Shown here one piece after another: positions 1,199 to 55,928 of a stretch of DNA of 64,000 nucleotides. The DNA is from a virus. The stretch covers positions 1-64,000 of IMG/VR virus record IMGVR_UViG_3300011115_000717. One strand, 5' to 3'. The notes beneath the pieces were generated by a model. The model ran no database searches. It saw only the letters and a list, made by a program, of their open reading frames with translations, and was not told the DNA's origin. Within the stretch, counting starts at the first letter, position 1, and every line of letters starts with the position of its first letter. The translations under genes were made by a program, and so were the position numbers.

Positions 1199-1480
1199 GT
1201 GTTTAAAGGCAAATATAAAAAGAAACTATCTGATGGTTCTTTGGCTACGTATTCCACAAATGATGTTGTTATGTTTCATGGAAAATTATACGCAGCCAAA
1301 GAACCTATTTCTTTGTCTCCACTAGAAAACACAAATTCATGGACTTTTGTTGGCTCTACTGAAATTTTTAATTCAGACAACCCACCGTTAAATCCAGAGA
1401 TTGGACAAATCTGGGTTAAAGATGGTATATATTATTCTTATTACTACGATGGTAACAACTATGCTTGGGTTGCTATTTAA
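1199..1480 (+). CDS. small putative virion/fibre-associated protein
   Basis: C-terminal PPLNPEIGQIW...YYYDGNNYAWV resembles the PGFTHGDRW...YVNDGNTPQWV segment of the 52091 fibre protein. Confidence 0.55.
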   Translation: MFKGKYKKKLSDGSLATYSTNDVVMFHGKLYAAKEPISLSPLENTNSWTFVGSTEIFNSDNPPLNPEIGQIWVKDGIYYSYYYDGNNYAWVAI

Positions 1481-2805
1481 TTTACTAAAACTATAAGTTC
1501 TAGAATAGAAGTAGTTTCTCGTTCTAATCTAAGAAATATATTTGTATTCAATCTGGTTTCTGTACCAGCAAATACAAACGCAGCACCTTCGGTTCCAGGT
1601 GTACCAAGTAAATAAGACAAACCTGTTAATGGAATTGAACAATTTCTGTCAGCAAAAGCACTAATAAGTGTTCCATAATTTCTAGAATCCGATAAATCAA
1701 TTTTGAAATTAATATCACGAACAAATGAACCAGCTGTAATTGTTAATGTATTTGTTACAATTTCATCAACATAAATTTCATTTATAGTTGTGTTAGATAA
1801 CAGTAACGGTATTTGAAAATCTGTTGAAGGGACAAAATCAGTTACCACAGATTTTCTATAAGTTAAGTGATATAATTTTAACAGTTCTAAAGATATCGGT
1901 GTGGTAATTGGTGTGTTGGTTGATAAATTTAAACTTTTTAAAGTTGTATTCTGGTACCACGATTTTAAAATATCATAAGTTGCAGTAGTCAAATATCGCA
2001 ACTCAAATTGTTTTTTATTCTGATACTCAATAAATCTAGTAAAGACACCCGGGTCAACGTAGTTATATCTAACGACACCGTTGATGGTTTCGTCATAGTT
2101 TAATGCTTCGATACTTGGGATACCGCGCATATACGTAGATACTAAACTATTCTGAAAATATAGATTTTCATTTGTGATCGTAGATGATTGGGATAGTAAT
2201 ACAACTTCTGATCCATCATTTAACACAGTAAAGTTTTTAACCGGAATACGTCCAGTGTTTGAAGTACTCTTTTCGACTTCAACATATTCTTCATAACCAA
2301 AATCACTACCGTATAAACCAAGGTACTTAAGGTTTAATGGGTCATTATTTGGTAACTTAGACAGTAAAATATTTGCTGTAGAACCATTAATGGTTGTAAA
2401 CTGAATTGCATCTGTAAATAAGTTTGCATCATATATGCCAGCTGCTAATCCAGATGTACCAGTTAAACCAGAAAAATATAAAAACTCATTATATGCTCCG
2501 GTTTTTCCCTGCAAAGTAAATTGACCAGACCACGTTGTCTTTGCACCTGTATCGATGTTTACGTAAACACCAGAACTAAACGCACAAGTATTACCAACAG
2601 ACATAGTATCAAAAAAGATTTTTAAGAATTTTAAATCGTTTGAATTTTTACTATGAGAATAATTAAAGAAATAACTATTTCCCGAAGCCAAAATATTTGG
2701 AGTCGATTGAATAATTCCTTTAGTTAAACATGGATTTGCTGTTGCCCCAACAAATTCCAAAGTAAAGGATTGTGTTGATTTTACTACTGTTAGTGGGACA
2801 GCCAT
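1477..2805 (-). CDS. hypothetical putative structural protein
   Basis: 442 aa, Ser/Thr/Asn-rich, beta-strand-like; downstream of a late promoter. Confidence 0.6.
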   Translation of the reverse strand: MAVPLTVVKSTQSFTLEFVGATANPCLTKGIIQSTPNILASGNSYFFNYSHSKNSNDLKFLKIFFDTMSVGNTCAFSSGVYVNIDTGAKTTWSGQFTLQGKTGAYNEFLYFSGLTGTSGLAAGIYDANLFTDAIQFTTINGSTANILLSKLPNNDPLNLKYLGLYGSDFGYEEYVEVEKSTSNTGRIPVKNFTVLNDGSEVVLLSQSSTITNENLYFQNSLVSTYMRGIPSIEALNYDETINGVVRYNYVDPGVFTRFIEYQNKKQFELRYLTTATYDILKSWYQNTTLKSLNLSTNTPITTPISLELLKLYHLTYRKSVVTDFVPSTDFQIPLLLSNTTINEIYVDEIVTNTLTITAGSFVRDINFKIDLSDSRNYGTLISAFADRNCSIPLTGLSYLLGTPGTEGAAFVFAGTETRLNTNIFLRLERETTSILELIVLVN

Positions 2806-2807
2806 AT

Positions 2808-3728
2808 TTAACTAGCCATGTATGAAATTATTTGTGTGGATGACTTGGCGCGAATATAAATTTTATTCAGGTTGATTACATCCAAGAAAACATTCTGACC
2901 AGGATCAAGTTCATATCCTGTAACTGCAGCACCATCTGAGTGAATATAGATCAAGTCTGTATTCGCAGAGGATGCTTTCAGATTTACGCCACTCCCGGAA
3001 GTATAACCAGAAGCCAACAACCAAGTAACTCCAGTTGTTGCGGTAACTCTGCCAGCAGTAAACACTGATGGTCTTGCCGCACCAGACGCAATCAAGGCTG
3101 CGTTCAGGGTAGTCATCAACCCATAGATGGCAGTCATTCCAGTTAGAATATTTGTATCATTGATACCAGCGGTACCCGTTACAGTAACATTTTGTGATAC
3201 ACCACCAGAGAGACCTTCAACTCTCAGAGCAGAAGTAGATCCATAATTTTGTACGTAGATAACTGGATTAATACTCGCAGTTATATTAATATCTTGGAGA
3301 TAAACTTTAAGAGCATCGCCAGATACACCGATGGCTGTATTGCCTACAGTGACAAGAGCAGAGCGAATAAAAGGGTTACCATCGTAACCATATACCTTAA
3401 TGCTGGAGTTCGTATACGTGAGAGGAATGCCCCCAGTGATCGCTATGGGAGCTCCGCTGACACCAAGGACACTTACGGTCCCCTGAACAGTTACAGGACC
3501 TCCTGCGCTATTTCCTTGTACAATTATAGGCGTAGTAAAATTAACAATGTTTGCAGTGATACCTGCTGATAGGATGACAGGTAGCGGGGTAGTACTACTG
3601 ACAACTGTAGAGCTGGCAGTATTACCATAGGCCATTTTAAAGACCTGGTAATGACTACCGCTTACTTCATTGGTAGCAAGAGAGGCGGTAAGTCCTGATG
3701 CAATATTTACTGTAATATTATTTGCCAT
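2808..3728 (-). CDS. putative virion structural protein, G-x-T/S-rich
   Basis: 306 aa, Gly/Thr/Ser/Val-rich; GGAG RBS and CTAAATA upstream. Confidence 0.65.
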   Translation of the reverse strand: MANNITVNIASGLTASLATNEVSGSHYQVFKMAYGNTASSTVVSSTTPLPVILSAGITANIVNFTTPIIVQGNSAGGPVTVQGTVSVLGVSGAPIAITGGIPLTYTNSSIKVYGYDGNPFIRSALVTVGNTAIGVSGDALKVYLQDINITASINPVIYVQNYGSTSALRVEGLSGGVSQNVTVTGTAGINDTNILTGMTAIYGLMTTLNAALIASGAARPSVFTAGRVTATTGVTWLLASGYTSGSGVNLKASSANTDLIYIHSDGAAVTGYELDPGQNVFLDVINLNKIYIRAKSSTQIISYMAS

Positions 3729-3747
3729 TGATACTCCGAATCACATA

Positions 3748-3754
3748 TATTTAG
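3748..3754 (-). promoter_or_regulatory. late promoter (CTAAATA)
   Basis: tatttag on the + strand, 19 nt upstream of the 3728 start. Confidence 0.6.
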
Positions 3755-3767
3755 GGTATTATAAGTA

Positions 3768-7575: not shown

Positions 7576-7601
7576 TATTTAGGTTATATTCCTGCTAAAT
7601 A
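7576..7601. promoter_or_regulatory. divergent late promoters for gp4 and gp48
   Basis: CTAAATA on the - strand (7576-7582) and on the + strand (7595-7601). Confidence 0.7.
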
Positions 7602-7608
7602 ATTTTAT

Positions 7609-8412
7609 ATGCCAGTCTATCGCTATCCTCTTGATCCATATGATGTTGAAATACCATTTTGGTGTGCCTTTAAATGTGCTGAATATTCTGTGATTAATGA
7701 AAAAAGAACAAGAGCACATATAAATGCGAATCCAATAGCTACAATTCTGTTACCTTTTACTGGTGAACCTAAGATGACAATGGAACATAAATTTGTAGAA
7801 GGTACTAATCCAGTGGGTCCAGTTTTGAGTCTGGCTGGACTTAAAAATTCAAGTGGTGGTGATGAGGGATTTTTAGAAAGACTTTCTGCACCAGCTGCCG
7901 CTTTTTATGAAACAACATTCACTACGGATACTTATAGAAGATTTAGTAATGTTACGGAAGCTTCAATGACTAGTGAAGCACGCAGAACGTTTACTTTTAA
8001 ATATTTACTTGTTCCAAAAAATGACAATGAAGCAGAAGCTGTTGATAATATAGCAAAAACTTTTCGGAATTTGTCTTATCCTAAAATTGTTCCAGGGTTA
8101 CCTGAAAGAAGTATGCCACAAAATATTTGGACTATATCTGCTATTGGTAATGTTGCTGGCGCAGAAAGTGATCCCAGTATAACTAATAGTTGGTTGGGCG
8201 ATCCGTTACCATGTGTCTTACAACACATGGAAGTTGATAAAGGAGACCCAGCAGATCCAGTTTTAAAGATTCTTCCCAACTCAAAATCTTTAATGACTTT
8301 ATTAACTATTACGTTTTTAGAATTTGAAACAGGAACTTATGCTCCTGACTTTCAGGGTGGTCTATTATTATCAAAATCTGAAGTATCATATTTAGGGGAC
8401 GCAGCAGGATGA
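7609..8412 (+). CDS. gp48: baseplate tail-tube cap gp48-like
   Basis: RRTFTFKYLLVPKNDNEAEAVDNIAKTFR...YP...PCVL...LTITFLE; precedes gp53. Confidence 0.75.
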   Translation: MPVYRYPLDPYDVEIPFWCAFKCAEYSVINEKRTRAHINANPIATILLPFTGEPKMTMEHKFVEGTNPVGPVLSLAGLKNSSGGDEGFLERLSAPAAAFYETTFTTDTYRRFSNVTEASMTSEARRTFTFKYLLVPKNDNEAEAVDNIAKTFRNLSYPKIVPGLPERSMPQNIWTISAIGNVAGAESDPSITNSWLGDPLPCVLQHMEVDKGDPADPVLKILPNSKSLMTLLTITFLEFETGTYAPDFQGGLLLSKSEVSYLGDAAG

Positions 8413-9317
8413 CATATTTTACAAATTTTCCTAAAATTAAATCTACTATAAACAATAAATCTATAGGTATGATTGATATTTCTTTTGGTCTAGACTATGA
8501 CCCAGAAGAATTTTCTTTTTCTACTACTTCAATGGGTACATTCAAAACTGTTGGTAATTTATCAGCTAGTATTTATGCAAAAAATGCCAATAATTTTTGG
8601 GGTTTAATGTTTGCAAATGAACAAATAAACCCATGGACTTTTTTACAAGAAACTCCTTCAGAGTTTATTAATTCAAATAAAGATTATACAGCTTTTTATT
8701 GCAAATATAATGGAACAAAATTAGACCCGAATGCTTATGTCCAATTACAACCAGATGATATCATTGTAAATGGTGTATATGAGTCTGGAACTACCGCAGC
8801 ACAAAGTATGTTTACAAATTATGATACATATTTTGATAATTATGGCACTAATATAGTTGTAAAAGGATTTGGGGATACAAAAAAAGCTCAAATATCTAAA
8901 ACCATTGGATCGACTGCCTCTTATGATTTAACGAATGTAGATAATCAATCGGGGGCAGTTTATCTTGTTATTTTACGTAAAGGTTCTACCGGATATTATA
9001 TTGCAAATTCGCCTCCTGGTTTCGGTTATGGTACTATAATAAACCTAAAATCATATTCATATCTTGCATCATCAGCTTTCTTTTCTAAGAAAGATATAGC
9101 AAGCATAGTATCACCAGTATCATTAATTGAGGTGAATGATTCTATACAAACAGTAGTAAATGGTGATGCACCATCTGCACTTGCAGAAGAAGTATTGACA
9201 GAACAATATACTCAAATTTCTACAGAACAATCATATGCCAACACATATCAGGCTACTTCTACTGTAAAATATTTAAATAACAGTGATCTTGGTACTATTC
9301 TTAAAAAGTTAATTTAA
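8409..9317 (+). CDS. gp53: baseplate wedge protein gp53-like
   Basis: MTYFTNFPKI N-terminus and LysM-like LSASIY...FWGLMFANEQINP. Confidence 0.75.
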   Translation: MTYFTNFPKIKSTINNKSIGMIDISFGLDYDPEEFSFSTTSMGTFKTVGNLSASIYAKNANNFWGLMFANEQINPWTFLQETPSEFINSNKDYTAFYCKYNGTKLDPNAYVQLQPDDIIVNGVYESGTTAAQSMFTNYDTYFDNYGTNIVVKGFGDTKKAQISKTIGSTASYDLTNVDNQSGAVYLVILRKGSTGYYIANSPPGFGYGTIINLKSYSYLASSAFFSKKDIASIVSPVSLIEVNDSIQTVVNGDAPSALAEEVLTEQYTQISTEQSYANTYQATSTVKYLNNSDLGTILKKLI

Positions 9318-9320
9318 ATT

Positions 9321-11777
9321 ATGCAAAATCCTATTTCGACACCATTACAATCGATTATTTTAAAATCACGTTTATCCACAGGTGATTCTGATTTTGATAT
9401 TGAATTGATGAAAAATAATAAATTTTGTCAATTTGAACGTATGGAGTTAGAAGAAAGTATTAACAATATTTTTCCTACGGGTGCTCTTATTGTTAGAGAT
9501 ACTAGTGATATAGTGACTTACATTGCTACAAAGGAAATTAAATCAATTATTGTTTCTATAGGTGATCCTGATGATAGTAGCTCTGAAAAATATGAATGGA
9601 CTATTACATCAATAACGTATGCCAATAATGCTATCTCTGAAATAGATCAAAGTTTTGTAGTTATCTATTTTACAAATAAACTATTCCAAGAATCTCAAGG
9701 AAAATCATTTTATGACGAGATTACTTATGAAACAAATTCTAATGGCGAAGTAACTGCAAATCCACGTTCTTTGTGGTATATATCATATCCATTTGTAACG
9801 ACACCCGAACATATTATCAAAACATATGGATACAGATCAGTTTTTTCAAAACCATTATTTAATCTGAGAGATTCTGAAGGTAACGATATAATATTAAAGG
9901 GTTGTGGTATAAACAATAATATTAAAAATAACTTTGAACCTAAAAATGCTGTTTTGTTTAGACCCAAAGTGGCAGATGCAAATAGAGAAGAACAATACCA
10001 AACGAATATAATTTCATATTTAAATTATATTTTTACATATGCGGTTAGTGCTCCTACTGAAAGTAATCAGTTAAAACCTTATTATATGTTTTGGACTGAT
10101 TTTACAAATTGTTTAAATTATAAATTTTTTGATCTTCGCAGTGATTTAGCTACTGACAAATATAAATTTGATCTCGATCCTACTGATCCATATCATATCC
10201 AACCATATGGTGTGTATGATTCACCTGATGTTCAACGTCTTTTAAAAGATGTTGATGGTGAAGAGATTGAATGTAAAAAAATATATGTACTAGTAACAAA
10301 TCCAGCTACCAGTATTATTAATAAAAATTATTATTATATTCGAAGCACACCAATATACATGGAAATACCAGAATATGGTCTTTCTGGATCAACTACTGAT
10401 CCTGTTAATTTGATGAGCCCATATTTAAGCGACTCTGCAAATACACATTTAACCACAGTCACCAACTATACAGAAAATGTTTCTGGTGGCGTGACCTATA
10501 GTATGAGAACTATGGCTCTAGAAGATGCCAATTTAACATATCTACCAGATCGAGGATTTAATGGGTATGCATCCGATTTTACTCAAAGCAATACAAAAAT
10601 TAACACAACTGATGCTGTTGCGTCATACGAATTTTTATTAAATCATATTCAGGCTACTCCTCTTGGTTTACGTGATTCATATCAACAACCAAATCCACAG
10701 ACACCGTTATATCCATTTAACGATAATCCCTACATGTGGCAATATATGTACGATCTAACTCGAACACATCCAAATTTAGTTAGAGTTGAAGATGGTGATG
10801 TTGTATCTGTGAAAGAAGTTGATTTTTATAAAGACTTGTCAGATTTATTATATACCGATGGTGGAGATATATTTTCTCAAACTGTAATTACTGCATTATT
10901 AGAATCTGTTACTTTAAATAAAGTTTTGCGTGCCAAATATAAAGCAATGGGTGATAAAAATAATTATGATAATTATCGCCGAAAGCAATTAGAACAAACT
11001 GAAAAAGAAAATTTTGTTGCCAATGTCTTATGTTGTATTGGTGAAGATCTCGCAGCAAAAGAAGATTGGTTCTTTGCTAAAATTACAGGATTTATTCCAG
11101 ATAATAGAAAATTACGTGATGGTATTGGGATTGAAGGAAACGATATAAAACTTGGTGCTGTTGCTGATGCTTGGTTATATTCGTGGAAAAAATTAGAACC
11201 TGGACCTCTTTTTGTTGGTTTGACTGCAGGCGTAACTGCTGATATTGAAAGATTTGCATCATATCATAGTATGATGCATGGATGGACAACCAGCCCATGT
11301 ATAGGTTCAACTGGTATGCCAGATCCATATTTTATTAATACAACTTATGATGCCAACGGTATACCCGCCATGAAACATGGTGGTTCGTTTACTGGTATGG
11401 CATCGTGGGCAATAAATCTTAACGAACGGCTAAACGGACAAAATGATAATATGCATACCAGTCCCAGCGCACCTGGAGAAAAGGGTACCGATACTAAAAA
11501 CTACAGAGGACCAGGATATTTTAAAGATAATATCACTACCAATGGTCAATTTGCGTATAAACCAATTGGATTTACTGGAAGTCTTTTTAACCATAGTAAT
11601 GCTTTACCAAATGGTCCTGGTTACGATAAATGGGAATCAGCTTCACATATTGTAAAAATGTACAAAATTAGAGTGAATAAATTAAGAGAGATGGGTTGCA
11701 TACCTCCTGCACCAAATCTAGATAATGAATATATGTATTACTTTATTGCGGAAAACGCAGTTGACGGAATCTGCTAA
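9321..11777 (+). CDS. large baseplate hub-like protein (gp27-like N-terminal part with expansions)
   Basis: N-terminal LEESINNIFPTGALIVRD resembles the start of T4-like hub proteins; position after gp53. Confidence 0.5.
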   Translation: MQNPISTPLQSIILKSRLSTGDSDFDIELMKNNKFCQFERMELEESINNIFPTGALIVRDTSDIVTYIATKEIKSIIVSIGDPDDSSSEKYEWTITSITYANNAISEIDQSFVVIYFTNKLFQESQGKSFYDEITYETNSNGEVTANPRSLWYISYPFVTTPEHIIKTYGYRSVFSKPLFNLRDSEGNDIILKGCGINNNIKNNFEPKNAVLFRPKVADANREEQYQTNIISYLNYIFTYAVSAPTESNQLKPYYMFWTDFTNCLNYKFFDLRSDLATDKYKFDLDPTDPYHIQPYGVYDSPDVQRLLKDVDGEEIECKKIYVLVTNPATSIINKNYYYIRSTPIYMEIPEYGLSGSTTDPVNLMSPYLSDSANTHLTTVTNYTENVSGGVTYSMRTMALEDANLTYLPDRGFNGYASDFTQSNTKINTTDAVASYEFLLNHIQATPLGLRDSYQQPNPQTPLYPFNDNPYMWQYMYDLTRTHPNLVRVEDGDVVSVKEVDFYKDLSDLLYTDGGDIFSQTVITALLESVTLNKVLRAKYKAMGDKNNYDNYRRKQLEQTEKENFVANVLCCIGEDLAAKEDWFFAKITGFIPDNRKLRDGIGIEGNDIKLGAVADAWLYSWKKLEPGPLFVGLTAGVTADIERFASYHSMMHGWTTSPCIGSTGMPDPYFINTTYDANGIPAMKHGGSFTGMASWAINLNERLNGQNDNMHTSPSAPGEKGTDTKNYRGPGYFKDNITTNGQFAYKPIGFTGSLFNHSNALPNGPGYDKWESASHIVKMYKIRVNKLREMGCIPPAPNLDNEYMYYFIAENAVDGIC

Positions 11778-12583
11778 TGGCTAAAAAAATAACAATCCTC
11801 GGAACAAATATATTAAAAATTCAAACAGGTAATGCTGTTGCTAATAGGGATGTATATACTTGTGCAAATCCAAAAATTACCACCGGTCAAGTAGAAGCAC
11901 CATATACTTTAGAAGAATGCTATGATCTTTTTCCAGAAATTAAAAAGATTGCTCTTGCTTTAGGTGTTGGAAATACTTATAGTTTGGAGGCTAGTTTTGG
12001 TTTAAGTGGTTCTACCAGTGGAATTTGTATATGTGGTTTATCTGGTGCATCAGGTTTGGGTATAGCAGGTGGTTCTGGTGGATTTACTTTAATCTTTGGG
12101 GAACCAGATCCAGAATGTGTAAACATTTATAATATATTGGGTAAGGATTGGGCTGGATGTTTTTGGCCTGACCCAATGGCAACCTTTAGTTGTAACTGTC
12201 CATTATACGGTGATATGTATGAAAACTTCTTAAAGTATCGCTTAGGATCTGCAACTTTTTGGGATACACCAATCAATGTACCTATTGAACGTCAAGACTT
12301 TATAGAATCAATCAAAGAATTGATTGAAATCACAATTGCTGGTGATTTGAGTCAACGCCCGGGCGATATTGTATATTTAAAAATGGATGATCCTACGGGG
12401 TTGGCTACTCTTAGTGATGATAATCCATCACAACACGTAAAAACTGGGTACTATTATATTATGCGTGCTAAAAATGTAATAAAAAATGATGGTGGACATA
12501 CTACAATTTTATCTTTGAGTACTATGACAAATTCTAGGTTCTATAAACCATATGCAGAAGACAAACCATATGAGTCAATTTAA
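11777..12583 (+). CDS. hub-like C-terminal module protein
   Basis: IEITIAGDLSQRPGDIVYL...TGYYYI...HTTILSL matches the C-terminal signature of gp27/GpD-like hubs. Confidence 0.5.
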   Translation: MAKKITILGTNILKIQTGNAVANRDVYTCANPKITTGQVEAPYTLEECYDLFPEIKKIALALGVGNTYSLEASFGLSGSTSGICICGLSGASGLGIAGGSGGFTLIFGEPDPECVNIYNILGKDWAGCFWPDPMATFSCNCPLYGDMYENFLKYRLGSATFWDTPINVPIERQDFIESIKELIEITIAGDLSQRPGDIVYLKMDDPTGLATLSDDNPSQHVKTGYYYIMRAKNVIKNDGGHTTILSLSTMTNSRFYKPYAEDKPYESI

Positions 12584-34219: not shown

Positions 34220-34240
34220 TATTTATTATATTATATAAAA

Positions 34241-36775: not shown

Positions 36776-36781
36776 ATTTTT

Positions 36782-37549: not shown

Positions 37550-37550
37550 T

Positions 37551-39100: not shown

Positions 39101-39147
39101 GTGTTTATTGTATATTACTATGTATTTTTTTATAAAAAAGGATCGAT

Positions 39148-43098: not shown

Positions 43099-43771
43099 AT
43101 ATGCTGCGTATGCTTTTAATTTGATTGAGAGTTTAAATAAATATGCATTTACTGATACCACAAATGATATATCTTTAATAGTTTGTAGTGATCATAACAT
43201 TGTGTTTGACAATAATAAAAGGGTAAAAGGATATGTTCAACATATTACACATATACCATTTCCGTTAATTTCTTTAATGAGGTATCATTATTACTCAAAT
43301 CTAGAATTAATATTACAAGAATATGATTATGTATATCATATTGATTGTGATATGCAGTTAAATGATGTAGTATCAAATGAAATTTTAAGTAATACTGTAT
43401 GTGTTGAACATCCTGGGTTTCTTGGTGATATATCACACGAACAACTTCCCTTTGATAGAACAAACAACAGCAATGCATATGTTTCATTTACTTCTGGAAA
43501 AAAATATTACCAAAATTGTTTTCAAGGCGGTAAAACTTCTTTATTTTTAAAAATGTGCACAGAATTAAAACATAAAATTGAAGAAGATCTTCGTAACAAT
43601 TATATTGCTTTGTGGCACGATGAAAGTTATATGAATAGATATATGGTAGATAATCCACCAGATTTAGTATTACCATTTGTATATGCATATCCAGAATTAT
43701 ATGATCTAGGACCTATTAAAAAAATTATTCATTTGCATAAAAATCATTTAGAAATTAGAAAAACAAATTAA
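43064..43771 (+). CDS. GT6 (ABO/alpha-1,3-Gal(NAc) transferase family) glycosyltransferase
   Basis: IAT.KY, YDY...DCD, HPG, AY.......YY...F.GG, A.WHDES..NRY. Confidence 0.9.
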   Translation: MKIAFLTIATYKYAAYAFNLIESLNKYAFTDTTNDISLIVCSDHNIVFDNNKRVKGYVQHITHIPFPLISLMRYHYYSNLELILQEYDYVYHIDCDMQLNDVVSNEILSNTVCVEHPGFLGDISHEQLPFDRTNNSNAYVSFTSGKKYYQNCFQGGKTSLFLKMCTELKHKIEEDLRNNYIALWHDESYMNRYMVDNPPDLVLPFVYAYPELYDLGPIKKIIHLHKNHLEIRKTN

Positions 43772-43779
43772 TAAATTAT

Positions 43780-44760
43780 ATGAAACAAAAAATTGCAATT
43801 ATAAGTGGTGTCAACGGTCAAGATGGTTCTTATTTATCAGAACATCTTTTAAGTTTGGATTATCTAGTTATAGGACTCAAACGAAGAACAAGTACTATTA
43901 CCACTGAAAGAATTGATAATATCTATAATAATCCAAACTTTAAATTGGAATATTATGATTTAAACGATGCATCTGCTTGTTACAAATATATAAATCAATA
44001 CCAACCCAACGAAATTTATAACCTTGCAGCTCAGTCTCATGTAAAGGTTTCTTTTGATATCCCAACTAACACAGTAGATGGAATTGTTCATGGTACATTA
44101 AATTGGCTTGAAGCAATAAGAAATACCAATACTTCTATTAAATTTTATCAAGCATCTTCTTCTGAAATGTTTGGTGATAGTCCAATTACAGAAGATACAG
44201 GATATAATGAAGATTCACCTTTAGTCCCTGTCTCTCCATATGCGGCTGCAAAAGTATGTGCACATAACTTGGTGAATATTTACAGAAGATCATACGGATT
44301 ACACGCCTGTTCGGGTATTTTGTTTAACCATGAATCCCCAAGGCGTGGTGAGACATTTGTTACCAGAAAGATTACTCTTGCTGCAGCCAAGATAAAACTT
44401 GGTTTACAAAACAAACTATATTTGGGTAATCTAACAGCAAAAAGAGATTGGGGATTTGCTGGTGATTATGTAAAAGCCATGCATCTTATGTTACAACATC
44501 ATATTCCAGCTGATTATATAATTGCAACGGGAAAAACACATTCTATTCAAGAATTTGTAAAAGAAGTATTTGATTATGCTTCGTTAGACTATAATGAATA
44601 TGTTGTGGTTGATTCAAAACTTTTTAGACCAATTGAAGTCCCTTATTTGCTTGGAAATTCAAGTAAAGCTCAAACCGATTTAGGGTGGAAACCTGTGATT
44701 GATATGAAACAATTAGCGCACATGATGTATGATGCAGATTTAAAATTATTACAGACTTGA
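43780..44760 (+). CDS. gmd: GDP-mannose 4,6-dehydratase
   Basis: GVNGQDGSYL, YNLAAQSHV..SF, YQASSSEMFG, SPYAAAK, GILFNHESPRRGETFVTRKI, LGNL.AKRDWG. Confidence 0.96.
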   Translation: MKQKIAIISGVNGQDGSYLSEHLLSLDYLVIGLKRRTSTITTERIDNIYNNPNFKLEYYDLNDASACYKYINQYQPNEIYNLAAQSHVKVSFDIPTNTVDGIVHGTLNWLEAIRNTNTSIKFYQASSSEMFGDSPITEDTGYNEDSPLVPVSPYAAAKVCAHNLVNIYRRSYGLHACSGILFNHESPRRGETFVTRKITLAAAKIKLGLQNKLYLGNLTAKRDWGFAGDYVKAMHLMLQHHIPADYIIATGKTHSIQEFVKEVFDYASLDYNEYVVVDSKLFRPIEVPYLLGNSSKAQTDLGWKPVIDMKQLAHMMYDADLKLLQT

Positions 44761-50318: not shown

Positions 50319-50339
50319 CTCTGTTACTGAGGAGTTATT
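50311..50339 (+). promoter_or_regulatory. late promoter within an RBS-sequestering hairpin upstream of regA
   Basis: ATAAATA at 50311-50317; stem AATAACTC (50314-50321) / GAGTTATT (50332-50339) overlaps GAGGAG. Confidence 0.6.
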
Positions 50340-50765: not shown

Positions 50766-52046
50766 ATGCATAAAATTACACTGTGTATGATCGTAAAAAA
50801 CGAATCGCATATTATTAAAGAATGTTTGGAGTCAGTTGCAAAGTACATTGATTATTACGTAATCTGTGATACGGGATCAACCGATGCAACCAAGACTATT
50901 ATTAAAGAGTATTTTGATTCAGTCAATATTCCCGGTGAAATCCATGACCACGAATGGGTTGATTTCGGATTTAATAGAACAAAAGCATTTGACCAATGTC
51001 GTGGAAAGACAAAATGGGTCTTGATGATTGATGCTGATGATTATATTGAAGGTAATATGCCTACAAACTTTGATGATACTATTGATGGTTATTCCGTTAA
51101 TATCATGAGAGGTAATTTTCAGTGGAAGCGTGTTCAGATTTTTAATCTTGATAACAAGCACTGGAAATACGAAGAACCAATTCACGAGTATCCAATTGCT
51201 GAACTGCCAATGAATGTACATCACTTGAATGGTGAATATGCATTCCAAGTTCGTACAGCAGGATATCGTACAATTTCTTGTGCAACTCAACAAGAAAAAT
51301 ATTGGAAAGATTATCTTCTATTAGAAGCAGCCTTACTTAAAGATCCAACCTCTTTACGTAAACAATTCTACCTAGCACAATCTGCATTTGATTGCCAGAA
51401 GTTTGATTTAGCTGAACAAGCTTATCAGAAGCGTGTTGATATGGGTGGGTGGAATGAAGAAGTTTTCTTTTCTCAACTTCGTGTAGCCTTTTGCAGAGAA
51501 CTGCAAGGTAAACCTGTTGAAGAAGTTGCAGATGCTTTTCTGAAGTCATGGGAAATTCGACCATCAAGAGCAGAACCTCTTTATCATCTATCTTGTGTCT
51601 ATCGCAAACACGGAAGACCAGCCCCAGCGTTTATGGCTGCTGTTCAAGCGTTATCGATTCCAAAACCAGAAAATGATATTTTGTTTGTAGATTCAGATCC
51701 ATATATTTGGGGAATTTTAGATGAAATTACTTCTACTGCACACAGTGTAGGTAAATTCCATTTAGGGTTACAGGCTGCAGATAGACTATTAAATGAAAGT
51801 TTGATTCCACCGGATCAAATTGAAAGAGTTCAAAAGAATCGGCAAGCATACTACAATAAAGTTATTGAGATTCAGGCACACATTGCTGAACAAAATAAAG
51901 CTAAAGTAGAAGCACAAGCTAAAGTAGATACTAAAGTAATTCCATCTACTACATTAAGTTTGACAAAACCAACTGTAAGTATGTCACCTCCAACAAAAGT
52001 ATATGGGCAGGAACATAAATTCAAGAAAAAGAAAGTAAAAAAATAG
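50766..52046 (+). CDS. GT2 glycosyltransferase with TPR-like repeats (SunS/SgtA-like architecture)
   Basis: LCMIVKNE, DTGSTD, W.DF...R, IDADD, IHE, then helical repeats (FYLAQS, P.RAEPLY.L). Confidence 0.88.
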   Translation: MHKITLCMIVKNESHIIKECLESVAKYIDYYVICDTGSTDATKTIIKEYFDSVNIPGEIHDHEWVDFGFNRTKAFDQCRGKTKWVLMIDADDYIEGNMPTNFDDTIDGYSVNIMRGNFQWKRVQIFNLDNKHWKYEEPIHEYPIAELPMNVHHLNGEYAFQVRTAGYRTISCATQQEKYWKDYLLLEAALLKDPTSLRKQFYLAQSAFDCQKFDLAEQAYQKRVDMGGWNEEVFFSQLRVAFCRELQGKPVEEVADAFLKSWEIRPSRAEPLYHLSCVYRKHGRPAPAFMAAVQALSIPKPENDILFVDSDPYIWGILDEITSTAHSVGKFHLGLQAADRLLNESLIPPDQIERVQKNRQAYYNKVIEIQAHIAEQNKAKVEAQAKVDTKVIPSTTLSLTKPTVSMSPPTKVYGQEHKFKKKKVKK

Positions 52047-52059: not shown

Positions 52060-52066
52060 CTAAATA
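52060..52066 (+). promoter_or_regulatory. late promoter (CTAAATA)
   Basis: Intergenic, upstream of the collagen-like gene. Confidence 0.6.
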
Positions 52067-52090
52067 TTATACTAAGCCATACATTTATGT

Positions 52091-54277
52091 ATGGCTAGTT
52101 CTTTTAATACCATGAATGATATATCTAAATCTATTAAACTAATTAAAGAGTGCCAATATTTAACTATTGGTTCTGATTATTTTATAGTAGATCATGTCTC
52201 CAATCCAACTACAATTAAAATAGGACATGGATTCGGTGAGATCAAATTAAAAGATACCAAAAATAATGAATTTATTTTAAATGGTAATTTAAATAAAATT
52301 GGACAATTATTTAAACCAAATAATCTCTTTGAGGTTGTTGGTGGTTCGTCCTATATTTTAAAAACTAATATTGATACTTTTCAATTAAATAGCGAATGGA
52401 AAGAATTTCCTACAGCCACTTTGGTTGAACAATTCATTGATGTTGGTGTTGGTGTTTCAAGTAAAATATTTGTTGAAAAGTCTTCAAATAAAGTTGTTAA
52501 ATTTGTTGGTAATTTAAATAAAATAAACAGTTTATTTGAAGAAATTCTTATTGCTCCTGTTACACCACATCCTGTTTTAATCGTAGAACAACAAAGATCC
52601 GTAAGAACTAAAACAATTCCCGGACCAATTGGTCCAGTTGGTTTAGCTGGCGTTCAGGGTGAGATGGGTCCAACTGGTATTATTGGTACACCAGGTACCA
52701 AAGGAGATACTGGAGAAAAAGGAGACAAAGGTGACCAAGGAGACAAAGGCGATCAAGGAGAAATTGGACCCGTTGGTGAAATTGGTCCACCTGGTATACA
52801 GGGCATACAAGGAATACAAGGTCCACCTGGACAAGATGGTAGTGTCGGTCCTCAAGGTGATGTTGGACCTCAAGGATTGGTTGGTCCGCAAGGTATCCAA
52901 GGTAAACCAGGATCGAATGGACAGAATGGCAAAGATGGAATCCAGGGCGCGATTGGACCTCAAGGTCCGATGGGCGAAAAAGGAGATCGCGGCGAGAAAG
53001 GCGAAAAGGGAGATCGAGGCCAAAATGGTCTACAAGGAATCCCAGGAGTTGCCGGTACAGTTGGACAAAAAGGCGATAAAGGTGACAAAGGAGAGATAGG
53101 TCCTATAGGAATATCTCCTGTCATAACAGCCGAATATCCTGTTATATTAAAAGAAGGAAAAATTTCTTTTGATGCTCAAAAAATAACAGCACTACTTGAT
53201 CAATTTAAAAATCAAGATATACAAAAAGCAATTGATAGTTTTGCAAAAACTGCTACACCAGGTGGTGGTGGTTTAGGTATTTTATTCCTAGGATCCAGAG
53301 TTTTAAAATCAGTTAATGATATTAATTTTACTGGTAGCGGTGTTACAGTTATACAACGTGGTAAAGGTGTAGAAGTAAATATTCCTGGTGGATCTGGTGG
53401 AGGTGGTGCAGTAAATAAAATTATTGCTGGTAGTGGAATTTTAGTTTCTCCTTCTGGTGGTACTGGTGATGTAACTATAACAAATCTGATATCTGTAAAG
53501 GCTACTGAAGGAACTATTCAAGTTGCTAATGGTAGTGATTTATTTGGAGACTCGGGATTTAGATATAATTATTCGACAGATGGTTCGTTACAGACACCAA
53601 AATCTTTTAAATTGGGAACCCTAGATCCAGATAGTTTTTTACAGTTTCATGATGGATCACAACAATTTACAGCTGCCAACACCTTTACATATGGAACAAC
53701 TGCATCACCTGGATTTACTCATGGTGATCGGTGGATGTCTTCCGATACCGGTATTGAATATGTTTATGTCAATGATGGTAATACTCCGCAGTGGGTTCAG
53801 CCTACTAATACAAGTGGTGGGCAAGCATATTCTCCAGTATATGGTTCATTCTATGACACCACAACTCAAGGTGCTACTTTAGGTAATACTGGATATGCAA
53901 TGACGTTTAATTCAACAGATTACTCAAATGGGGTATCTATTGTAAGTAATAGTCGTATAACATTAGATTATACTGGAATATATAATGTTCAATTTTCTGC
54001 ACAGTTGAATAAATCAACTGCTTCAAAGTCCCATATTGATATTTGGCTAAGAAAAAATGGAACAGATATATCAAATACAAATACTTCAATGTCTTTAGCC
54101 GGATCAGATGCTAAAACAGTAGCGGCATGGAACTTTTTTGTAGGAGTGACTGCAGGAGATTATCTTCAACTTATGTGGGCTACAGATGATACAAATAGTA
54201 ATATTTTATATCAGACCGCAACTTCTGTGCACCCAGCCACACCTTCCATCATTTTAACCGTAAATAAAACAAATTAA
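52091..54277 (+). CDS. collagen-like fibre protein with BclA/C1q-like C-terminal domain
   Basis: 55 consecutive Gly-X-Y triplets; C-terminal YGSFYD...TGIYNVQFSAQL...WLRKNG...GDYLQL. Confidence 0.85.
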   Translation: MASSFNTMNDISKSIKLIKECQYLTIGSDYFIVDHVSNPTTIKIGHGFGEIKLKDTKNNEFILNGNLNKIGQLFKPNNLFEVVGGSSYILKTNIDTFQLNSEWKEFPTATLVEQFIDVGVGVSSKIFVEKSSNKVVKFVGNLNKINSLFEEILIAPVTPHPVLIVEQQRSVRTKTIPGPIGPVGLAGVQGEMGPTGIIGTPGTKGDTGEKGDKGDQGDKGDQGEIGPVGEIGPPGIQGIQGIQGPPGQDGSVGPQGDVGPQGLVGPQGIQGKPGSNGQNGKDGIQGAIGPQGPMGEKGDRGEKGEKGDRGQNGLQGIPGVAGTVGQKGDKGDKGEIGPIGISPVITAEYPVILKEGKISFDAQKITALLDQFKNQDIQKAIDSFAKTATPGGGGLGILFLGSRVLKSVNDINFTGSGVTVIQRGKGVEVNIPGGSGGGGAVNKIIAGSGILVSPSGGTGDVTITNLISVKATEGTIQVANGSDLFGDSGFRYNYSTDGSLQTPKSFKLGTLDPDSFLQFHDGSQQFTAANTFTYGTTASPGFTHGDRWMSSDTGIEYVYVNDGNTPQWVQPTNTSGGQAYSPVYGSFYDTTTQGATLGNTGYAMTFNSTDYSNGVSIVSNSRITLDYTGIYNVQFSAQLNKSTASKSHIDIWLRKNGTDISNTNTSMSLAGSDAKTVAAWNFFVGVTAGDYLQLMWATDDTNSNILYQTATSVHPATPSIILTVNKTN
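52622..53116 (+). repeat. collagen Gly-X-Y repeat (55 triplets)
   Basis: GPI GPV GLA ... GEI GPI GIS, counted from the translation. Confidence 0.95.
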
Positions 54278-54282
54278 TAAAG

Positions 54283-54289
54283 ATAAATA
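54283..54289 (+). promoter_or_regulatory. late promoter (ATAAATA)
   Basis: 7 nt before ATG 54297. Confidence 0.55.
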
Positions 54290-54296
54290 TTAACAC

Positions 54297-55928
54297 ATGG
54301 CACTAGATTTCCCTACATCACCAGCACTGAATGAAATTTACACATATGGTGGTCGTTCCTGGAAGTGGAACGGAACTGCATGGGATGTTTATAGTACCGT
54401 AAGTGGTGATGTTGTAACAAAACTTAATGGTTTGACTGGTGGTGTAACTCTTGCTGCTGGGTCAAATATTACTCTAACTCCAGTTGGTAATACCATTACT
54501 ATTGCGTCTTCTGGTGGTGGTGGTACTGGTAGTGGTGCGACTGGTGCAACTGGAGCAACGGGTCCACAAGGAAACACAGGTCCAGTTGGAGATTATGTAA
54601 GCACATTCAATGGACTCACAGGTGCTGTAACTGGTGTAACTCTTGGTGGTGCAGCCTTTACAGGACTCGTATCTTCTACAGTTGGATTCTCTGGTCCTGG
54701 AACAAATCTCATAGGTAACGCATCTGGATTGACTGCTGGTAGTGCTTCTAAAGTTCAAATTTCTGAAGCAGCAACAAGTACCGTGCATTATCTGGCTCTT
54801 GCAACTGGTACTGGTAACACTGGAATTTATATTGATACATCTGCTCCAAGATGGACATATACTCCGAGTACAGGATTACTGACTACCCCAACAGGAATTT
54901 TAACAGCACCGACTATAAATTCTAGTGGCACTGTTTATACAAATAATATTAACACTTATGTTTATGGTAATCCAATTACTATTTCTAGTGATGGTGGAAT
55001 TAATATAAATGAAACAAGTGGTACGGGTCTTGATGTGAATACCATTGGGACTATTCGTATGGGTGATATTTCTGGATTTGATAATGGTTATATTTTTGCT
55101 ATAAATGAGAGTGCTGGAGAAGTAGACTTTAGTGGTATGAGCATAATAAATGCTGGAGGAGTAGTTACAACATTCAATGGACTATATGGTGCAGTTACTG
55201 GTGTCAGTAAATTGAATGGTCTTTCAGGTGGCGTAACTCTCGCAGCCGGTACAAATATCACACTGACTCCCGTAGGAAATACAATTACCATTGCGTCTTC
55301 TGGTGGCGGTGGTGGAAGTTCTGTATATGGAGTTACTGCAAGTCTTGACTTCTCTGAAAATATTAATGGAATTCGATTGACGATTGGAGGAACTGGTAGC
55401 AATGGAACTGATCTTTCAGTAATAAATAAAGCAATTTCAATAGTTCCAACAATTTCTACATCGGGTGCAACATATTCATGTGTTTTTGTTTCTGCAACAC
55501 CTTCATATTCCACCGCCACATCGCAGTGGGCTGCAAAATTAATTTTGAAACCACCATTTGGAACAGGTGTTACATCTGCCAGTACTATTATTGCTGCCCC
55601 AATAACACAAATTTCTTTATATGTTACAGGATTAACTGGAAATACATATACAGATAATTGGACAAATATTTCAGGATCTGATTTGTATCATCAAGACGCA
55701 ACCTATGTAACTAAAACTCTCACAGGAATTACATGGGTTTCAGATAGTATGTTCTTAAACTGCAAAGTTTTAGGACTCACATCAGCAGATCACACTCCAG
55801 AGGATGCAATTCTAGAGGGTGTTAATTTCGAGATAAATAATATACTGGGAGGCACAGGGTTCGACATAATCGGACATGCTCCCGAAGGCACATACGGTAA
55901 GTACACAATTAAATGTTTAGGTCAATAA
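54297..55928 (+). CDS. fibre-like virion protein with internal repeats
   Basis: MALDFP.SP...W.WNG.AW N-terminus, GATGATGATG, duplicated NGL.GGVTLAAG.NITLTPVGNTITIASSGGGG. Confidence 0.75.
   Translation: MALDFPTSPALNEIYTYGGRSWKWNGTAWDVYSTVSGDVVTKLNGLTGGVTLAAGSNITLTPVGNTITIASSGGGGTGSGATGATGATGPQGNTGPVGDYVSTFNGLTGAVTGVTLGGAAFTGLVSSTVGFSGPGTNLIGNASGLTAGSASKVQISEAATSTVHYLALATGTGNTGIYIDTSAPRWTYTPSTGLLTTPTGILTAPTINSSGTVYTNNINTYVYGNPITISSDGGININETSGTGLDVNTIGTIRMGDISGFDNGYIFAINESAGEVDFSGMSIINAGGVVTTFNGLYGAVTGVSKLNGLSGGVTLAAGTNITLTPVGNTITIASSGGGGGSSVYGVTASLDFSENINGIRLTIGGTGSNGTDLSVINKAISIVPTISTSGATYSCVFVSATPSYSTATSQWAAKLILKPPFGTGVTSASTIIAAPITQISLYVTGLTGNTYTDNWTNISGSDLYHQDATYVTKTLTGITWVSDSMFLNCKVLGLTSADHTPEDAILEGVNFEINNILGGTGFDIIGHAPEGTYGKYTIKCLGQ
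54414..55316 (+). repeat. internal ~37 aa duplication (54414-54524 and 55203-55316)
   Basis: VTKLNGLTGGVTLAAGSNITLTPVGNTITIASSGGGG vs VSKLNGLSGGVTLAAGTNITLTPVGNTITIASSGGGG. Confidence 0.9.

What the first reader, a model, noticed from the sequence alone, without database searches (positions are those of the whole stretch)
1477..55928. Candidate phage-encoded virion O-glycosylation system with a G-x-[T/S]-[A/G] sequon
Seen: the same short motif recurs in non-homologous virion proteins. Exact GLTA occurs in 2808, 9321, gp14, gp18 (three times) and 54297. GLSG occurs in 2808, 9321, 11777 (twice), gp18 and 54297. GLTG occurs in 1477 and 54297, GISG in gp14 and gp23, GITG in gp18 and gp23, plus many GAT/GNT/GST/GVT. 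Manual counts of G-x-[ST] are about 13 in the 306 aa 2808 protein and about 15 in gp18, against about 4 in the 835 aa polymerase; I saw no GLTA in replication or enzyme proteins. The window also encodes a GT2-TPR enzyme and 15 glycan genes. Established: Thr residues of G-x-T triplets in spore BclA proteins are O-glycosylated, and GT2-TPR enzymes glycosylate proteins or peptides. Inference: the GT2-TPR primes G-x-T/S sites and the island extends and methylates the glycan, coating the whole particle. Such a coat could aid stability, protease or grazer evasion, or host attachment.
Basis: partly seen in the sequence, partly recalled or inferred. Interest (0 to 1): 0.88.

Follow-up and report, generated by a model that had tools for sequence, protein, structure and literature searches.

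The report
Candidate sugar-tagging motif on phage particle
An uncultured freshwater T4-like phage has about six times too many Gly-Leu/Ile/Val-Thr/Ser-Gly/Ala sites in its particle proteins and carries an enzyme of the type that adds sugars to proteins, so its particle is probably sugar-coated at these sites, though no chemistry has shown this.

Summary
In the head-tail-baseplate module, G-[LIVM]-[ST]-[AG] occurs 21 times against 3.2-3.9 expected. This holds when residues are shuffled only within 8-residue blocks (0 of 1000 shuffles reach 21). Non-structural proteins (5 vs 5.1), T4 structural proteins (3 vs 3.4) and cyanophage S-PRM1 structural proteins (9 vs 9.7) show no excess.

Sites are conserved in orthologues down to 35% identity. 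They also arise at different positions in a homologous sheath of a relative.

The 50766 protein is a GT-A domain plus TPR-like repeats. Its closest solved relatives are ThuS/SunS and GmaR, all protein or peptide glycosyltransferases. In all related contigs with regA at 60% identity or more, where sequence continues, it follows regA and precedes fibre genes, here a collagen-like one. This mirrors C. difficile sgtA-bclA3. The upstream sugar-gene island is swapped between near-identical strains.

Caveats:
- No chemistry exists.
- One relative with the enzyme shows no excess outside its fibres.
- Fibres are motif-rich in fragments where no enzyme was found.
- Bare G-x-[ST] is barely enriched.
- Surface exposure was not measured.

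The scan has reported the same pattern on other phage DNA. Verdict: a probable new variant of phage virion glycosylation.

The parts
50766..52046 (+). GT-A (GT2) plus TPR-like protein glycosyltransferase candidate, 426 aa, directly after regA with a 3-nt gap
   Evidence: Pfam Glycos_transf_2 on residues 6-97. AF2 model pLDDT 85: GT-A fold 1-165, paired helices 175-387. Foldseek top hits ThuS 7msk and SunS 7msn, E 1.5e-15 to 4e-15. Profile against PDB: GmaR 1.4e-14, SunS 2.6e-10. D89-A-D-D92 invariant in 20 homologues. No hydrophobic segment.
52091..54277 (+). Collagen-like fibre protein, 728 aa: 55 GXY triplets at residues 178-342 and a C-terminal domain with a weak BclA_C match
   Evidence: Pfam Collagen 2.1e-26. 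BclA_C E 2.2e-4, 21.6 bits, below the 38-bit cut-off. Tail-fibre PHROGs. CTAAATA late-promoter-like box upstream. Sequence.
54297..55928 (+). Gly/Thr-rich fibre-like protein, 543 aa, with 6 G-[LIVM]-[ST]-[AG] sites, a GATGATGATG stretch and an internal duplication of KLNGL[TS]GGVTLAAG.NITLTPVGNTITIASSGGGG
   Evidence: No Pfam or PHROG family.
31957..44760 (+). AT-rich (26% GC) sugar-gene island. Holds GT25-like, GT11, GT2/GT7C, FkbM methyltransferase, two GDP-mannose-dehydratase-type enzymes, sugar C-methyltransferase, GT1/4 and GT6. No membrane proteins.
   Evidence: Replaced by other sugar genes in relatives whose flanks are 96-100% identical.
19637..21496 (+). gp18 tail sheath, 619 aa, with 5 sites at residues 61, 198, 303, 344 and 385
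   Evidence: 5 vs 0.3 expected. Conserved in homologues of 67-70% identity, and three of five sites conserved at 35% identity. Absent from T4 and S-PRM1. Four sites lie in a region missing from the 431-aa sheaths of G004 and G005.
2808..3728 (-). Fibre- or spike-like protein, 306 aa, with 5 sites (6 counting GMTA) and a C-terminal jelly-roll domain
   Evidence: 5 vs 0.5 expected. Three sites kept in all four orthologues of 39-42% identity and two more in two or three of them, with class-preserving substitutions. AF2 is confident only for residues 192-306. Jelly-roll matches Z about 8, not decisive. CTAAATA box upstream.
9321..11777 (+). 818-aa baseplate-region protein of unknown family, 3 sites
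   Evidence: 3 vs 0.2 expected. Orthologues in G003 and G004 also carry 3 sites each.
11777..12583 (+). 268-aa Gly-rich baseplate-region protein: 2 GLSG plus GASG in a Gly/Ser-rich stretch
15967..16881 (+). gp14 neck protein with 2 sites (residues 201, 250) in a C-terminal extension beyond the T4 neck domain
   Evidence: Pfam T4_neck-protein covers residues 3-171 only. Sites.
27225..28670 (+). gp23 major capsid protein with 2 sites (residues 142, 155) in a Gly/Ser-rich stretch
   Evidence: Pfam Gp23 2.4e-137. The stretch differs from T4 and S-PRM1 gp23.
1477..2805 (-). 442-aa protein next to 2808: 1 GLTG and 5 G-x-[ST]-[AG] sites
   Evidence: 5 vs 0.6 expected for G-x-[ST]-[AG].
8409..9317 (+). 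302-aa baseplate-region protein with 3 G-x-[ST]-[AG] sites
   Evidence: 3 vs 0.6 expected.

Best explanation
The 50766 protein is a soluble protein O-glycosyltransferase (possibly O/S) of the GT-A plus TPR type, like SunS, ThuS, GmaR and SgtA.

Proposed mechanism, all inferred:
- It is made together with the replication genes, being translationally coupled to regA.
- It transfers a first sugar to Ser or Thr in G-[L/I/V]-[S/T]-[G/A] sites, more loosely G-x-[S/T]-[G/A], on newly made late proteins in the cytoplasm.
- Its primary substrates are the fibre proteins encoded directly downstream.
- In this lineage, scattered sites on sheath, capsid, neck extension and the 2808, 9321 and 11777 proteins have been recruited as additional acceptors.
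- The strain-variable island (31957-44760) supplies GDP-6-deoxyhexose-type donors, further glycosyltransferases and methyltransferases that extend and methylate the glycan, giving strain-specific coats.

Shown here: the motif excess and its conservation, the enzyme's fold and family, and the synteny.

Inferred: that the enzyme acts on these sites, that the island extends the glycan, the timing of expression, and any biological role.
For: - Order-specific, lineage-specific excess: 21 vs 3.2-3.9 in the core virion module, none in non-structural proteins, T4 or S-PRM1.
- Motif-level conservation: in gp18, 12 of 16 aligned motif residues are identical in a homologue of 35% overall identity, and the hydroxyl residue is kept at all 4 aligned sites.
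- In the 2808 family, three sites are kept in all four orthologues of 39-42% identity and two more in two or three of them, with I/L/M/V, S/T and A/G exchanges.
- Independent gains: the G004 sheath (31% identical) has 4 sites at other positions. Non-fibre proteins of enzyme-bearing relatives: G004 33 vs 10.1, G003 19 vs 8.9.
- Enzyme identity. ThuS glycosylates both Cys and Ser (PMC12457901). GmaR adds GlcNAc to flagellin (PMC9638930). SgtA, a GT-A plus TPR enzyme encoded directly upstream of bclA3, adds O-GlcNAc to Thr or Ser of G-P-T repeats (PMC7157674).
- Synteny: regA then the GT2 in 77 of 81 loci. Every locus with regA of 60% identity or more, where sequence continues, has the GT2 followed by fibre genes. 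Loci with regA of 55% or less go from regA to other genes, most often the dUTPase, without it.
- Position 3 in relatives' fibre proteins is enriched for T (293 vs 76), S (146 vs 56) and C (49 vs 3.2), and depleted for N (17 vs 44).
- No membrane protein, flippase or polymerase candidate was seen in the island.
- Virion proteins that are internal in T4 (tube, portal, protease, scaffold) carry no site.
Against: - No glycan, mass shift or expression data exist.
- G005 has the enzyme (56% identical) but no excess outside its fibres: 6 vs 6.9.
- Fibres in G007, G008 and G010 are motif-rich (9 vs 2.0, 29 vs 2.1, 8 vs 1.3) although no such enzyme was found. These records are only 19-24% complete.
- In fibres, G recurs with period 3 and N precedes the motif in 22% of cases (N-G-x-T-G-x-V), which suggests a structural repeat.
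- G-x-[ST]-[AG] is mildly enriched (1.5x) in S-PRM1, which lacks the enzyme.
- The neighbours of the Tunturi_5 homologue (36% identical) lack the motif.
- Many Cys instances sit at homologous positions, so they are not independent.
- Exposure of the sites was not computed. The 2808 model is unreliable exactly where its sites lie.
Confidence: 0.55

Rival explanations
1. The motif is purely structural. G-hydrophobic-Ser/Thr-small would be a turn or strand-capping element of the beta-rich, trimeric fibre and insertion domains used by this phage lineage. It would be conserved for folding reasons. The glycosyltransferase would act on something else, or only on the collagen-like fibre.
For: - Period-3 Gly and the N-G-x-T-G-x-V context in fibres.
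- Fibres are motif-rich in fragments without a detectable enzyme.
- G005 has the enzyme but no core excess.
- S, T and C are near-isosteric, so their shared enrichment could be structural.
- The 2808 sites lie in a repetitive region that a monomer model cannot fold, as expected of an intertwined trimer.
- G-x-[ST]-[AG] is 1.5x enriched in S-PRM1.
Against: - The excess occurs in unrelated folds: sheath insertion, capsid loop, neck extension and baseplate proteins.
- No extended sequence context is shared and no shared Pfam domain was found.
- It is absent from T4 and S-PRM1 for the G-hydrophobic form.
- It arises at non-orthologous positions in homologous sheaths.
Confidence: 0.25
2. The glycosyltransferase and island modify the host cell envelope or a host protein during infection, for example to exclude superinfecting phages or prevent re-adsorption. 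The virion motif would be unrelated.
For: - Sugar-gene islands are common auxiliary genes of aquatic T4-like phages (general knowledge).
- The island has a sigma-70-like early promoter.
- The island is hypervariable, as O-antigen loci are.
Against: - No flippase, polymerase, initiating phosphoglycosyltransferase or any clear membrane protein was found in the island.
- The 50766 protein resembles cytoplasmic protein or peptide glycosyltransferases, not envelope enzymes.
- Its fixed position ahead of fibre genes and the motif excess would be left unexplained.
Confidence: 0.12
3. The sugar genes glycosylate phage DNA bases, as T4 glucosylates hydroxymethylcytosine and other phages attach diverse glycans.
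For: T4-like phages and others do this (cited in PMC12619734; bioRxiv 10.1101/2023.12.21.572611).
Against: - No thymidylate-synthase-type dCMP hydroxymethylase was found (PF00303), although the record is only 59% complete.
- ThyX and a dCTP deaminase/dUTPase point to ordinary thymidine synthesis.
- The 50766 fold matches peptide glycosyltransferases.
- This reading does not explain the protein motif.
Confidence: 0.04

Closest known systems
Clostridioides difficile SgtA with BclA3 (PMC7157674)
   Same: - A soluble GT-A plus C-terminal TPR enzyme is encoded immediately upstream of a collagen-like surface-fibre gene.
- SgtA adds beta-O-GlcNAc to Thr (and accepts Ser) that follows Gly-x in G-P-T triplets, the same G-x-T core as the motif here.
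   Different: - This system is phage-encoded, in a T4-like genome.
- The collagen region of 52091 is not G-x-T rich.
- Candidate sites are mostly single G-[LIV]-[ST]-[GA] words scattered over unrelated virion proteins.
- Direct sequence homology to SgtA was not tested, because no SgtA sequence was available by reference.
SunS / ThuS glycocin glycosyltransferases (PDB 7MSN, 7MSK) and Listeria GmaR
   Same: - Best full-length fold matches: E about 1e-15, about 395 aligned columns.
- Best profile matches: GmaR 1.4e-14, SunS 2.6e-10.
- All share the GT-A plus TPR or helical-repeat architecture, are cytoplasmic, and act on peptide or protein Ser, Thr or Cys (PMC12457901, PMC9638930).
   Different: - Identity is only 17-21%.
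- Whole-chain rmsd is 13-14 A, because the domain orientation differs.
- Their substrates are one bacteriocin precursor or flagellin, not a set of virion proteins.
- GmaR's antirepressor domain is absent here.
Mycobacteriophage virion glycosylation (Freeman et al. 2023, as described in PMC12619734)
   Same: Phage-encoded glycosyltransferases decorate virion proteins of a tailed phage.
   Different: - There, glycans sit at the C-termini of capsid and tail-tube subunits.
- Here, candidate sites are internal short motifs, the tail tube has none, and the enzyme type and phage lineage differ.
Chlorovirus and mimivirus virion glycosylation (PMC9614988, PMC5408694)
   Same: - The virus encodes GDP-mannose dehydratase, fucosyl- and other glycosyltransferases and sugar methyltransferases.
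- The enzymes are cytoplasmic and independent of the host.
- In mimivirus, collagen-like fibrils carry the glycans.
   Different: Those are eukaryotic giant viruses with different enzymes and acceptor sites. No homology between the systems was shown here.

Membership tests
GT-A plus TPR cytoplasmic protein/peptide glycosyltransferases (SunS, ThuS, GmaR, SgtA type) | N-terminal GT-A (GT2) domain with an acidic DxD metal- and nucleotide-binding motif | tested here: met
   Pfam PF00535 3.7e-13 on residues 6-97. D89-A-D-D92 invariant in 20 homologues of 54-79% identity. GT-A strands and helices in the AF2 model.
GT-A plus TPR cytoplasmic protein/peptide glycosyltransferases (SunS, ThuS, GmaR, SgtA type) | C-terminal TPR or TPR-like helical-repeat domain | tested here: met
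   AF2 gives ten helices between residues 175 and 387, pLDDT mostly above 90. Foldseek matches to consensus TPR proteins and the OGT TPR domain, E about 1e-6. The profile matches CTPR-rv4. Pfam TPR models themselves did not fire at E <= 0.001.
GT-A plus TPR cytoplasmic protein/peptide glycosyltransferases (SunS, ThuS, GmaR, SgtA type) | Whole-chain similarity to solved members | tested here: met
   ThuS 7msk_A E 1.5e-15 and SunS 7msn_A 4e-15, TM 0.54, 392-395 columns. HMM against PDB: GmaR 1.4e-14, SunS 2.6e-10, ThuS 2.2e-7.
GT-A plus TPR cytoplasmic protein/peptide glycosyltransferases (SunS, ThuS, GmaR, SgtA type) | Soluble, without a membrane anchor | tested here: met
   No 19-residue window with mean hydropathy of 1.6 or more.
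GT-A plus TPR cytoplasmic protein/peptide glycosyltransferases (SunS, ThuS, GmaR, SgtA type) | Encoded next to its protein substrate | tested here: inconclusive
   The gene is followed by fibre genes in the related loci where sequence continues. In the window the next gene is collagen-like. That these are substrates is not shown.
GT-A plus TPR cytoplasmic protein/peptide glycosyltransferases (SunS, ThuS, GmaR, SgtA type) | Transfers a sugar to Ser, Thr or Cys of a polypeptide | not testable with these tools
   Needs an enzyme assay or glycoproteomics.
BclA-type collagen-like surface glycoproteins | Collagen G-X-Y triple-helix region | tested here: met
   52091: Pfam Collagen 2.1e-26. Uninterrupted GXY run at residues 178-342.
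BclA-type collagen-like surface glycoproteins | C-terminal BclA_C (C1q/TNF-like) domain | tested here: inconclusive
   PF18573 E 2.2e-4, 21.6 bits, below the curated cut-off of 38 bits. No structure was predicted for this domain.
BclA-type collagen-like surface glycoproteins | Thr-rich G-x-T (GPT) triplets as O-glycosylation sites | tested here: not met
   The 52091 collagen region is dominated by GPQ, GEK, GDK and GIQ triplets with few Thr in the third place. Only 54297 has a short GATGATGATG run.
Mycobacteriophage-type virion glycosylation | Glycans on C-terminal extensions of the capsid and tail-tube subunits | tested here: not met
   The gp23 sites are internal (residues 142, 155). Both tail-tube paralogues have no site. 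The feature is taken from PMC12619734's account of Freeman et al. 2023.
T4-type DNA base glycosylation | Hydroxymethyl-pyrimidine synthesis gene (thymidylate-synthase-type dCMP hydroxymethylase) | tested here: inconclusive
   No PF00303 match in the 108-kb record, whose estimated completeness is 59%. ThyX is present.

The most novel reading that the evidence does not exclude
A large clade of uncultured freshwater T4-like phages uses one conserved SunS/GmaR/SgtA-type priming enzyme that reads a four-residue sequon, G-[L/I/V]-[S/T, perhaps C]-[G/A], on outward-facing virion proteins. Strain-swappable sugar cassettes then build different glycans on that primer. The result would be virion 'serotypes': a sequon-directed, phage-autonomous protein glycosylation system in phages of (presumably) Gram-negative hosts.
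Probability: 0.4. Interest if true: 0.8.

Novelty: new variant of a known kind. Interest (0 to 1): 0.7.

Why it matters
Virion glycosylation among tailed phages is established only for mycobacteriophages, where it affects antibody recognition. If true here, it would have several consequences.
- A short, predictable sequon read by a phage-encoded enzyme would make virion glycosylation predictable from sequence in environmental T4-like phages.
- It would explain why sugar-gene islands in these phages are hypervariable.
- It would give a compact enzyme-plus-tag pair for protein glycoengineering.
- It would bear on particle stability, grazing, adsorption and decay of phages in lakes.

The claim can be tested directly with one recombinant enzyme and a few peptides.

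Tried and rejected
Explanations rejected:
- **DNA-level motif:** the codons of the copies differ.
- **Global or local composition artefact:** the excess survives shuffling within 8-residue blocks.
- **General property of T4-like structural proteins:** T4 and S-PRM1 show no excess for the G-hydrophobic form.
- **Shared Ig-like, Big_2 or other domain signature:** no Pfam or PHROG family is common to the motif-bearing proteins, and their sequence contexts differ.
- **Genome-wide dipeptide bias:** non-structural proteins show none.

Tests that were negative or uninformative:
- **Independent test in Tunturiibacter phage Tunturi_5** (enzyme homologue, 36% identical): its Ser/Thr-rich neighbours carry no G-[LIVM]-[ST]-[AG] excess. 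This is negative but not decisive.
- **Structure of the 2808 protein, to place its sites:** pLDDT is below 50 over residues 48-190, where the sites lie, so nothing can be said. Its C-terminal jelly-roll matches are generic, Z about 8.
- **Exact TATAAATA late promoters:** not over-represented. Only gp18 has one. A looser CTAAATA box is seen by eye.
- **Genome-contig scan:** it gave only a 3-kb contig in a Terrimicrobiaceae bin and a weak Parabacteroides hit.
- **Literature:** no paper in the held library describes this system in T4-like phages.

- Several IMG/VR records were not held (L002, L004, L006, L090, L141).
- PMC10527164 (Freeman et al. 2023) is not held.

Full report
**What the window is.** The window is the first 64 kb of a single 107,928-bp IMG/VR record, 36% GC, estimated 59% complete. 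It belongs to an uncultured freshwater T4-like myovirus. Family searches give this map:
- gp32 (4130), hub (5879), gp4 (7150), tube cap (7609), gp25 (12614), gp6 (12994), gp13 (15162), gp14 (15967), gp15 (16881), gp16/gp17 (17540, 17946);
- gp18 sheath (19637), two tube paralogues (21516, 22091), gp20 (22716), gp21 (24993), gp22 (26204), gp23 (27225), UvsW (29902);
- a 26%-GC sugar-gene island (31957-44760);
- gp47, gp46, gp45, gp44, gp62 and regA (45362-50762);
- a GT2 enzyme (50766), a collagen-like fibre (52091), three large Gly/Ser/Thr-rich proteins (54297, 55939, 57741), dCTP deaminase/dUTPase (59279) and gp43 (61455).

The nearest cultured relatives are cyanomyoviruses, at about 53% gp23 identity.

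- In an unbiased scan of reduced-alphabet 4-mers over 36 structural proteins, G-h-[ST]-G (16 vs 3.3) and G-h-[ST]-A (12 vs 2.4) are the strongest high-count words after the collagen repeats. In 113 other proteins they are at expectation.
- In the core head-tail-baseplate module, G-[LIVM]-[ST]-[AG] occurs 21 times against 3.2-3.9 expected, even when residues are shuffled only within 8-residue blocks (0/1000). It ranks first among all 24 orderings of its four residue classes.
- Each position is enriched conditional on the other three.
Bare G-x-[ST] gives only 106 vs 90.
- Codons vary between copies.
- T4 structural proteins (3 vs 3.4) and cyanophage S-PRM1 structural proteins (9 vs 9.7) show no excess of the G-hydrophobic form. 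S-PRM1 shows a mild 1.5x excess of G-x-[ST]-[AG].

**Conservation and turnover.**
- The five gp18 sites are kept in six homologues of 67-70% identity.
- Three of the five are kept, with class-preserving changes such as GLTA to GVSA, in a homologue of 35% identity.
- They have no counterpart in T4 or S-PRM1 gp18.
- Four of them lie in a segment absent from the 431-aa sheaths of relatives G004 and G005. This segment is probably a peripheral insertion, by analogy with other sheaths. That is an inference, not a test.
- The G004 sheath has four sites of its own at different positions.
- In the 2808 family, three sites are kept in all four orthologues of 39-42% identity and two more in two or three of them. 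They fade in more distant homologues.
- The gp14 sites lie in an extension beyond the T4 neck domain. The gp23 sites lie in a Gly/Ser-rich stretch that differs from T4.

**The enzyme.** The 50766 protein has a Pfam GT2 domain at residues 6-97. Twenty homologues of 54-79% identity keep D-A-D-D. The AF2 model (pLDDT 85) shows a GT-A domain followed by paired helices at 175-387.
- Foldseek's best matches, over nearly the whole chain, are ThuS and SunS, the glycocin S/O-glycosyltransferases (E about 1e-15). TarS, RmlT and plain TPR proteins follow.
- A profile search of PDB sequences puts GmaR first (1.4e-14), then SunS and ThuS. GmaR is the Listeria flagellin O-GlcNAc transferase, which has a GT domain followed by a TPR domain (PMC9638930).
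- ThuS modifies Cys and Ser (PMC12457901).
- C. difficile SgtA is a GT-A plus TPR enzyme encoded immediately upstream of bclA3. It adds O-GlcNAc to Thr or Ser of G-P-T repeats (PMC7157674).
- The phage enzyme has no hydrophobic segment.

**Synteny.** The family is large in metagenomes. In 77 of 81 viral contigs the gene directly follows regA.
- Every contig whose regA is at least 60% identical has the enzyme followed by fibre-like genes, wherever sequence continues.
- Contigs with regA at 55% identity or less run from regA into other genes, most often the dUTPase, without it. The enzyme plus fibre cluster is therefore a clade-specific insertion.
- After de-replication, proteins downstream of the enzyme carry 439 sites vs 131 expected. 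Upstream proteins carry 15 vs 11.
- There, however, Gly recurs with period 3 and Asn often precedes the motif (N-G-x-T-G-x-V). Part of the fibre signal is therefore repeat structure.
- At position 3, T (293/76), S (146/56) and C (49/3.2) are enriched, N is depleted, and Q reflects collagen G-h-Q-G. Many Cys sites are at homologous positions.

**Whole records.** Outside collagen-like or Gly-rich proteins, the counts are:

| Record | Enzyme status | Observed vs expected |
|---|---|---|
| Window | present | 20 vs 7.5 |
| G004 | present | 33 vs 10.1 |
| G003 | present | 19 vs 8.9 |
| G005 | present | 6 vs 6.9 |
| G007 | not found (fragment) | 5 vs 3.1 |
| G008 | not found (fragment) | 7 vs 4.1 |
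| G009 | not found (fragment) | 7 vs 3.4 |
| G010 | not found (fragment) | 2 vs 4.6 |

The fragments lacking the enzyme show no significant excess, yet the fibres in G007, G008 and G010 are motif-rich. Co-variation is thus suggestive but imperfect, and the 'negative' records are only 19-29% complete. A distant homologue of the enzyme in jumbo phage Tunturi_5 sits beside Ser/Thr-rich proteins that lack the motif.

**The island.** It holds GT11, GT6, GT2/GT7C, GT25-like and GT1/4 enzymes, an FkbM methyltransferase, a sugar C-methyltransferase and two GDP-mannose-dehydratase-type enzymes. It has no clear membrane protein. Relatives whose flanking genes are 96-100% identical carry other sugar genes in the same place: HAD phosphatase, nucleotidyltransferase, epimerase, another C-methyltransferase, and GT15. 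That the island acts on the same product is inference.

For the DNA-glycosylation rival, no PF00303 enzyme was found, and ThyX is present.

By eye, CTAAATA late-type boxes precede gp20, gp23, 7609, 2808 and 52091. Sigma-70-like promoters precede the island, 44791 and 59279. The enzyme is coupled to regA.

**Verdict.** The best reading (about 0.55) is a phage-encoded protein O-glycosyltransferase that marks fibre proteins and, in this lineage, scattered G-[LIV]-[ST]-[GA] sites on other outer virion proteins. A strain-specific glycan would then be built by the island. The main rival (about 0.25) is a purely structural motif.

The scan has reported the same pattern on other T4-like phage DNA many times. 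Those notes are not independent evidence.

Noticed in passing
window 31957-44760; L008:101-3995; L009:833-4029; L020:1-2994: The sugar-gene island is a swappable cassette. Contigs with 96-100% identical flanking genes (gp47 to regA) carry different sugar genes at the same place: HAD phosphatase, nucleotidyltransferase, epimerase, another C-methyltransferase, GT15 and a GT34-like enzyme. Several of the families (GT6, GT7C, GT11, GT15) are best known from eukaryotes and giant viruses.
   Followed up: partly
fibre genes downstream of the enzyme in L032, L041, L054, L057, L060, L061, L068, L069, L073, L075: G-[LIV]-Cys-[GA] is 15 times over-represented (49 vs 3.2) in relatives' fibre proteins, often as ...T-G-V-C-G-S-G... 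Cys is the residue that SunS-type enzymes glycosylate. Many copies sit at homologous positions, so the count is not independent.
   Followed up: partly
window 54297-55928 (residues 42-76 and 305-339): An internal duplication of about 35 residues (KLNGL[TS]GGVTLAAG.NITLTPVGNTITIASSGGGG), with a second repeated element TFNGL[TY]GAVTGV. This N-G-x-T-G-x-V word also dominates the motif context in relatives' fibres.
   Followed up: partly
window 15967-16881 (residues about 200-212) and 27225-28670 (residues about 141-153): The neck protein gp14 and the capsid protein gp23 share a nearly identical short peptide, SGISG(S/P)SGGF, inside otherwise unrelated proteins.
   Followed up: no
window 55939-57435 and 57741-59243: Two paralogous 500-aa proteins, rich in Gly, Thr and Ala, with no family match and no motif excess (0 vs 0.5 each), lie in the fibre cluster with a 93-aa gene between them. 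They are conserved in relatives at 61-76% identity.
   Followed up: no
window 21516-22088 and 22091-22669: Two adjacent tail-tube (gp19-like) paralogues. A third tube-like gene lies at 6564-7157 on the minus strand.
   Followed up: no
window 19590-19636, 22690-22715, 27195-27224, 3729-3760 (-), 7580-7608, 52060-52090; 44720-44790, 59210-59278: CTAAATA/TATAAATA late-type boxes lie about 20-30 nt before gp18, gp20, gp23, 2808, 7609 and 52091. TTGAC(A/T)-N17-TATAAT early-type promoters precede 44791 and 59279. These were seen by eye only. The exact TATAAATA is not over-represented in the window.
   Followed up: partly
L206 (JBIPMC010000373.1, 3,067 bp): A 48%-identical fragment of the enzyme lies on a 3-kb contig binned into a Lake Mendota Terrimicrobiaceae (Verrucomicrobiota) genome. 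This is either a binning artefact or a hint at the host group.
   Followed up: no
loci L117-L143, gene directly after the enzyme: In the sister clade (regA 60-68% identical), a conserved small gene of 131-147 aa sits between the enzyme and the fibre genes. The window has no such gene.
   Followed up: no
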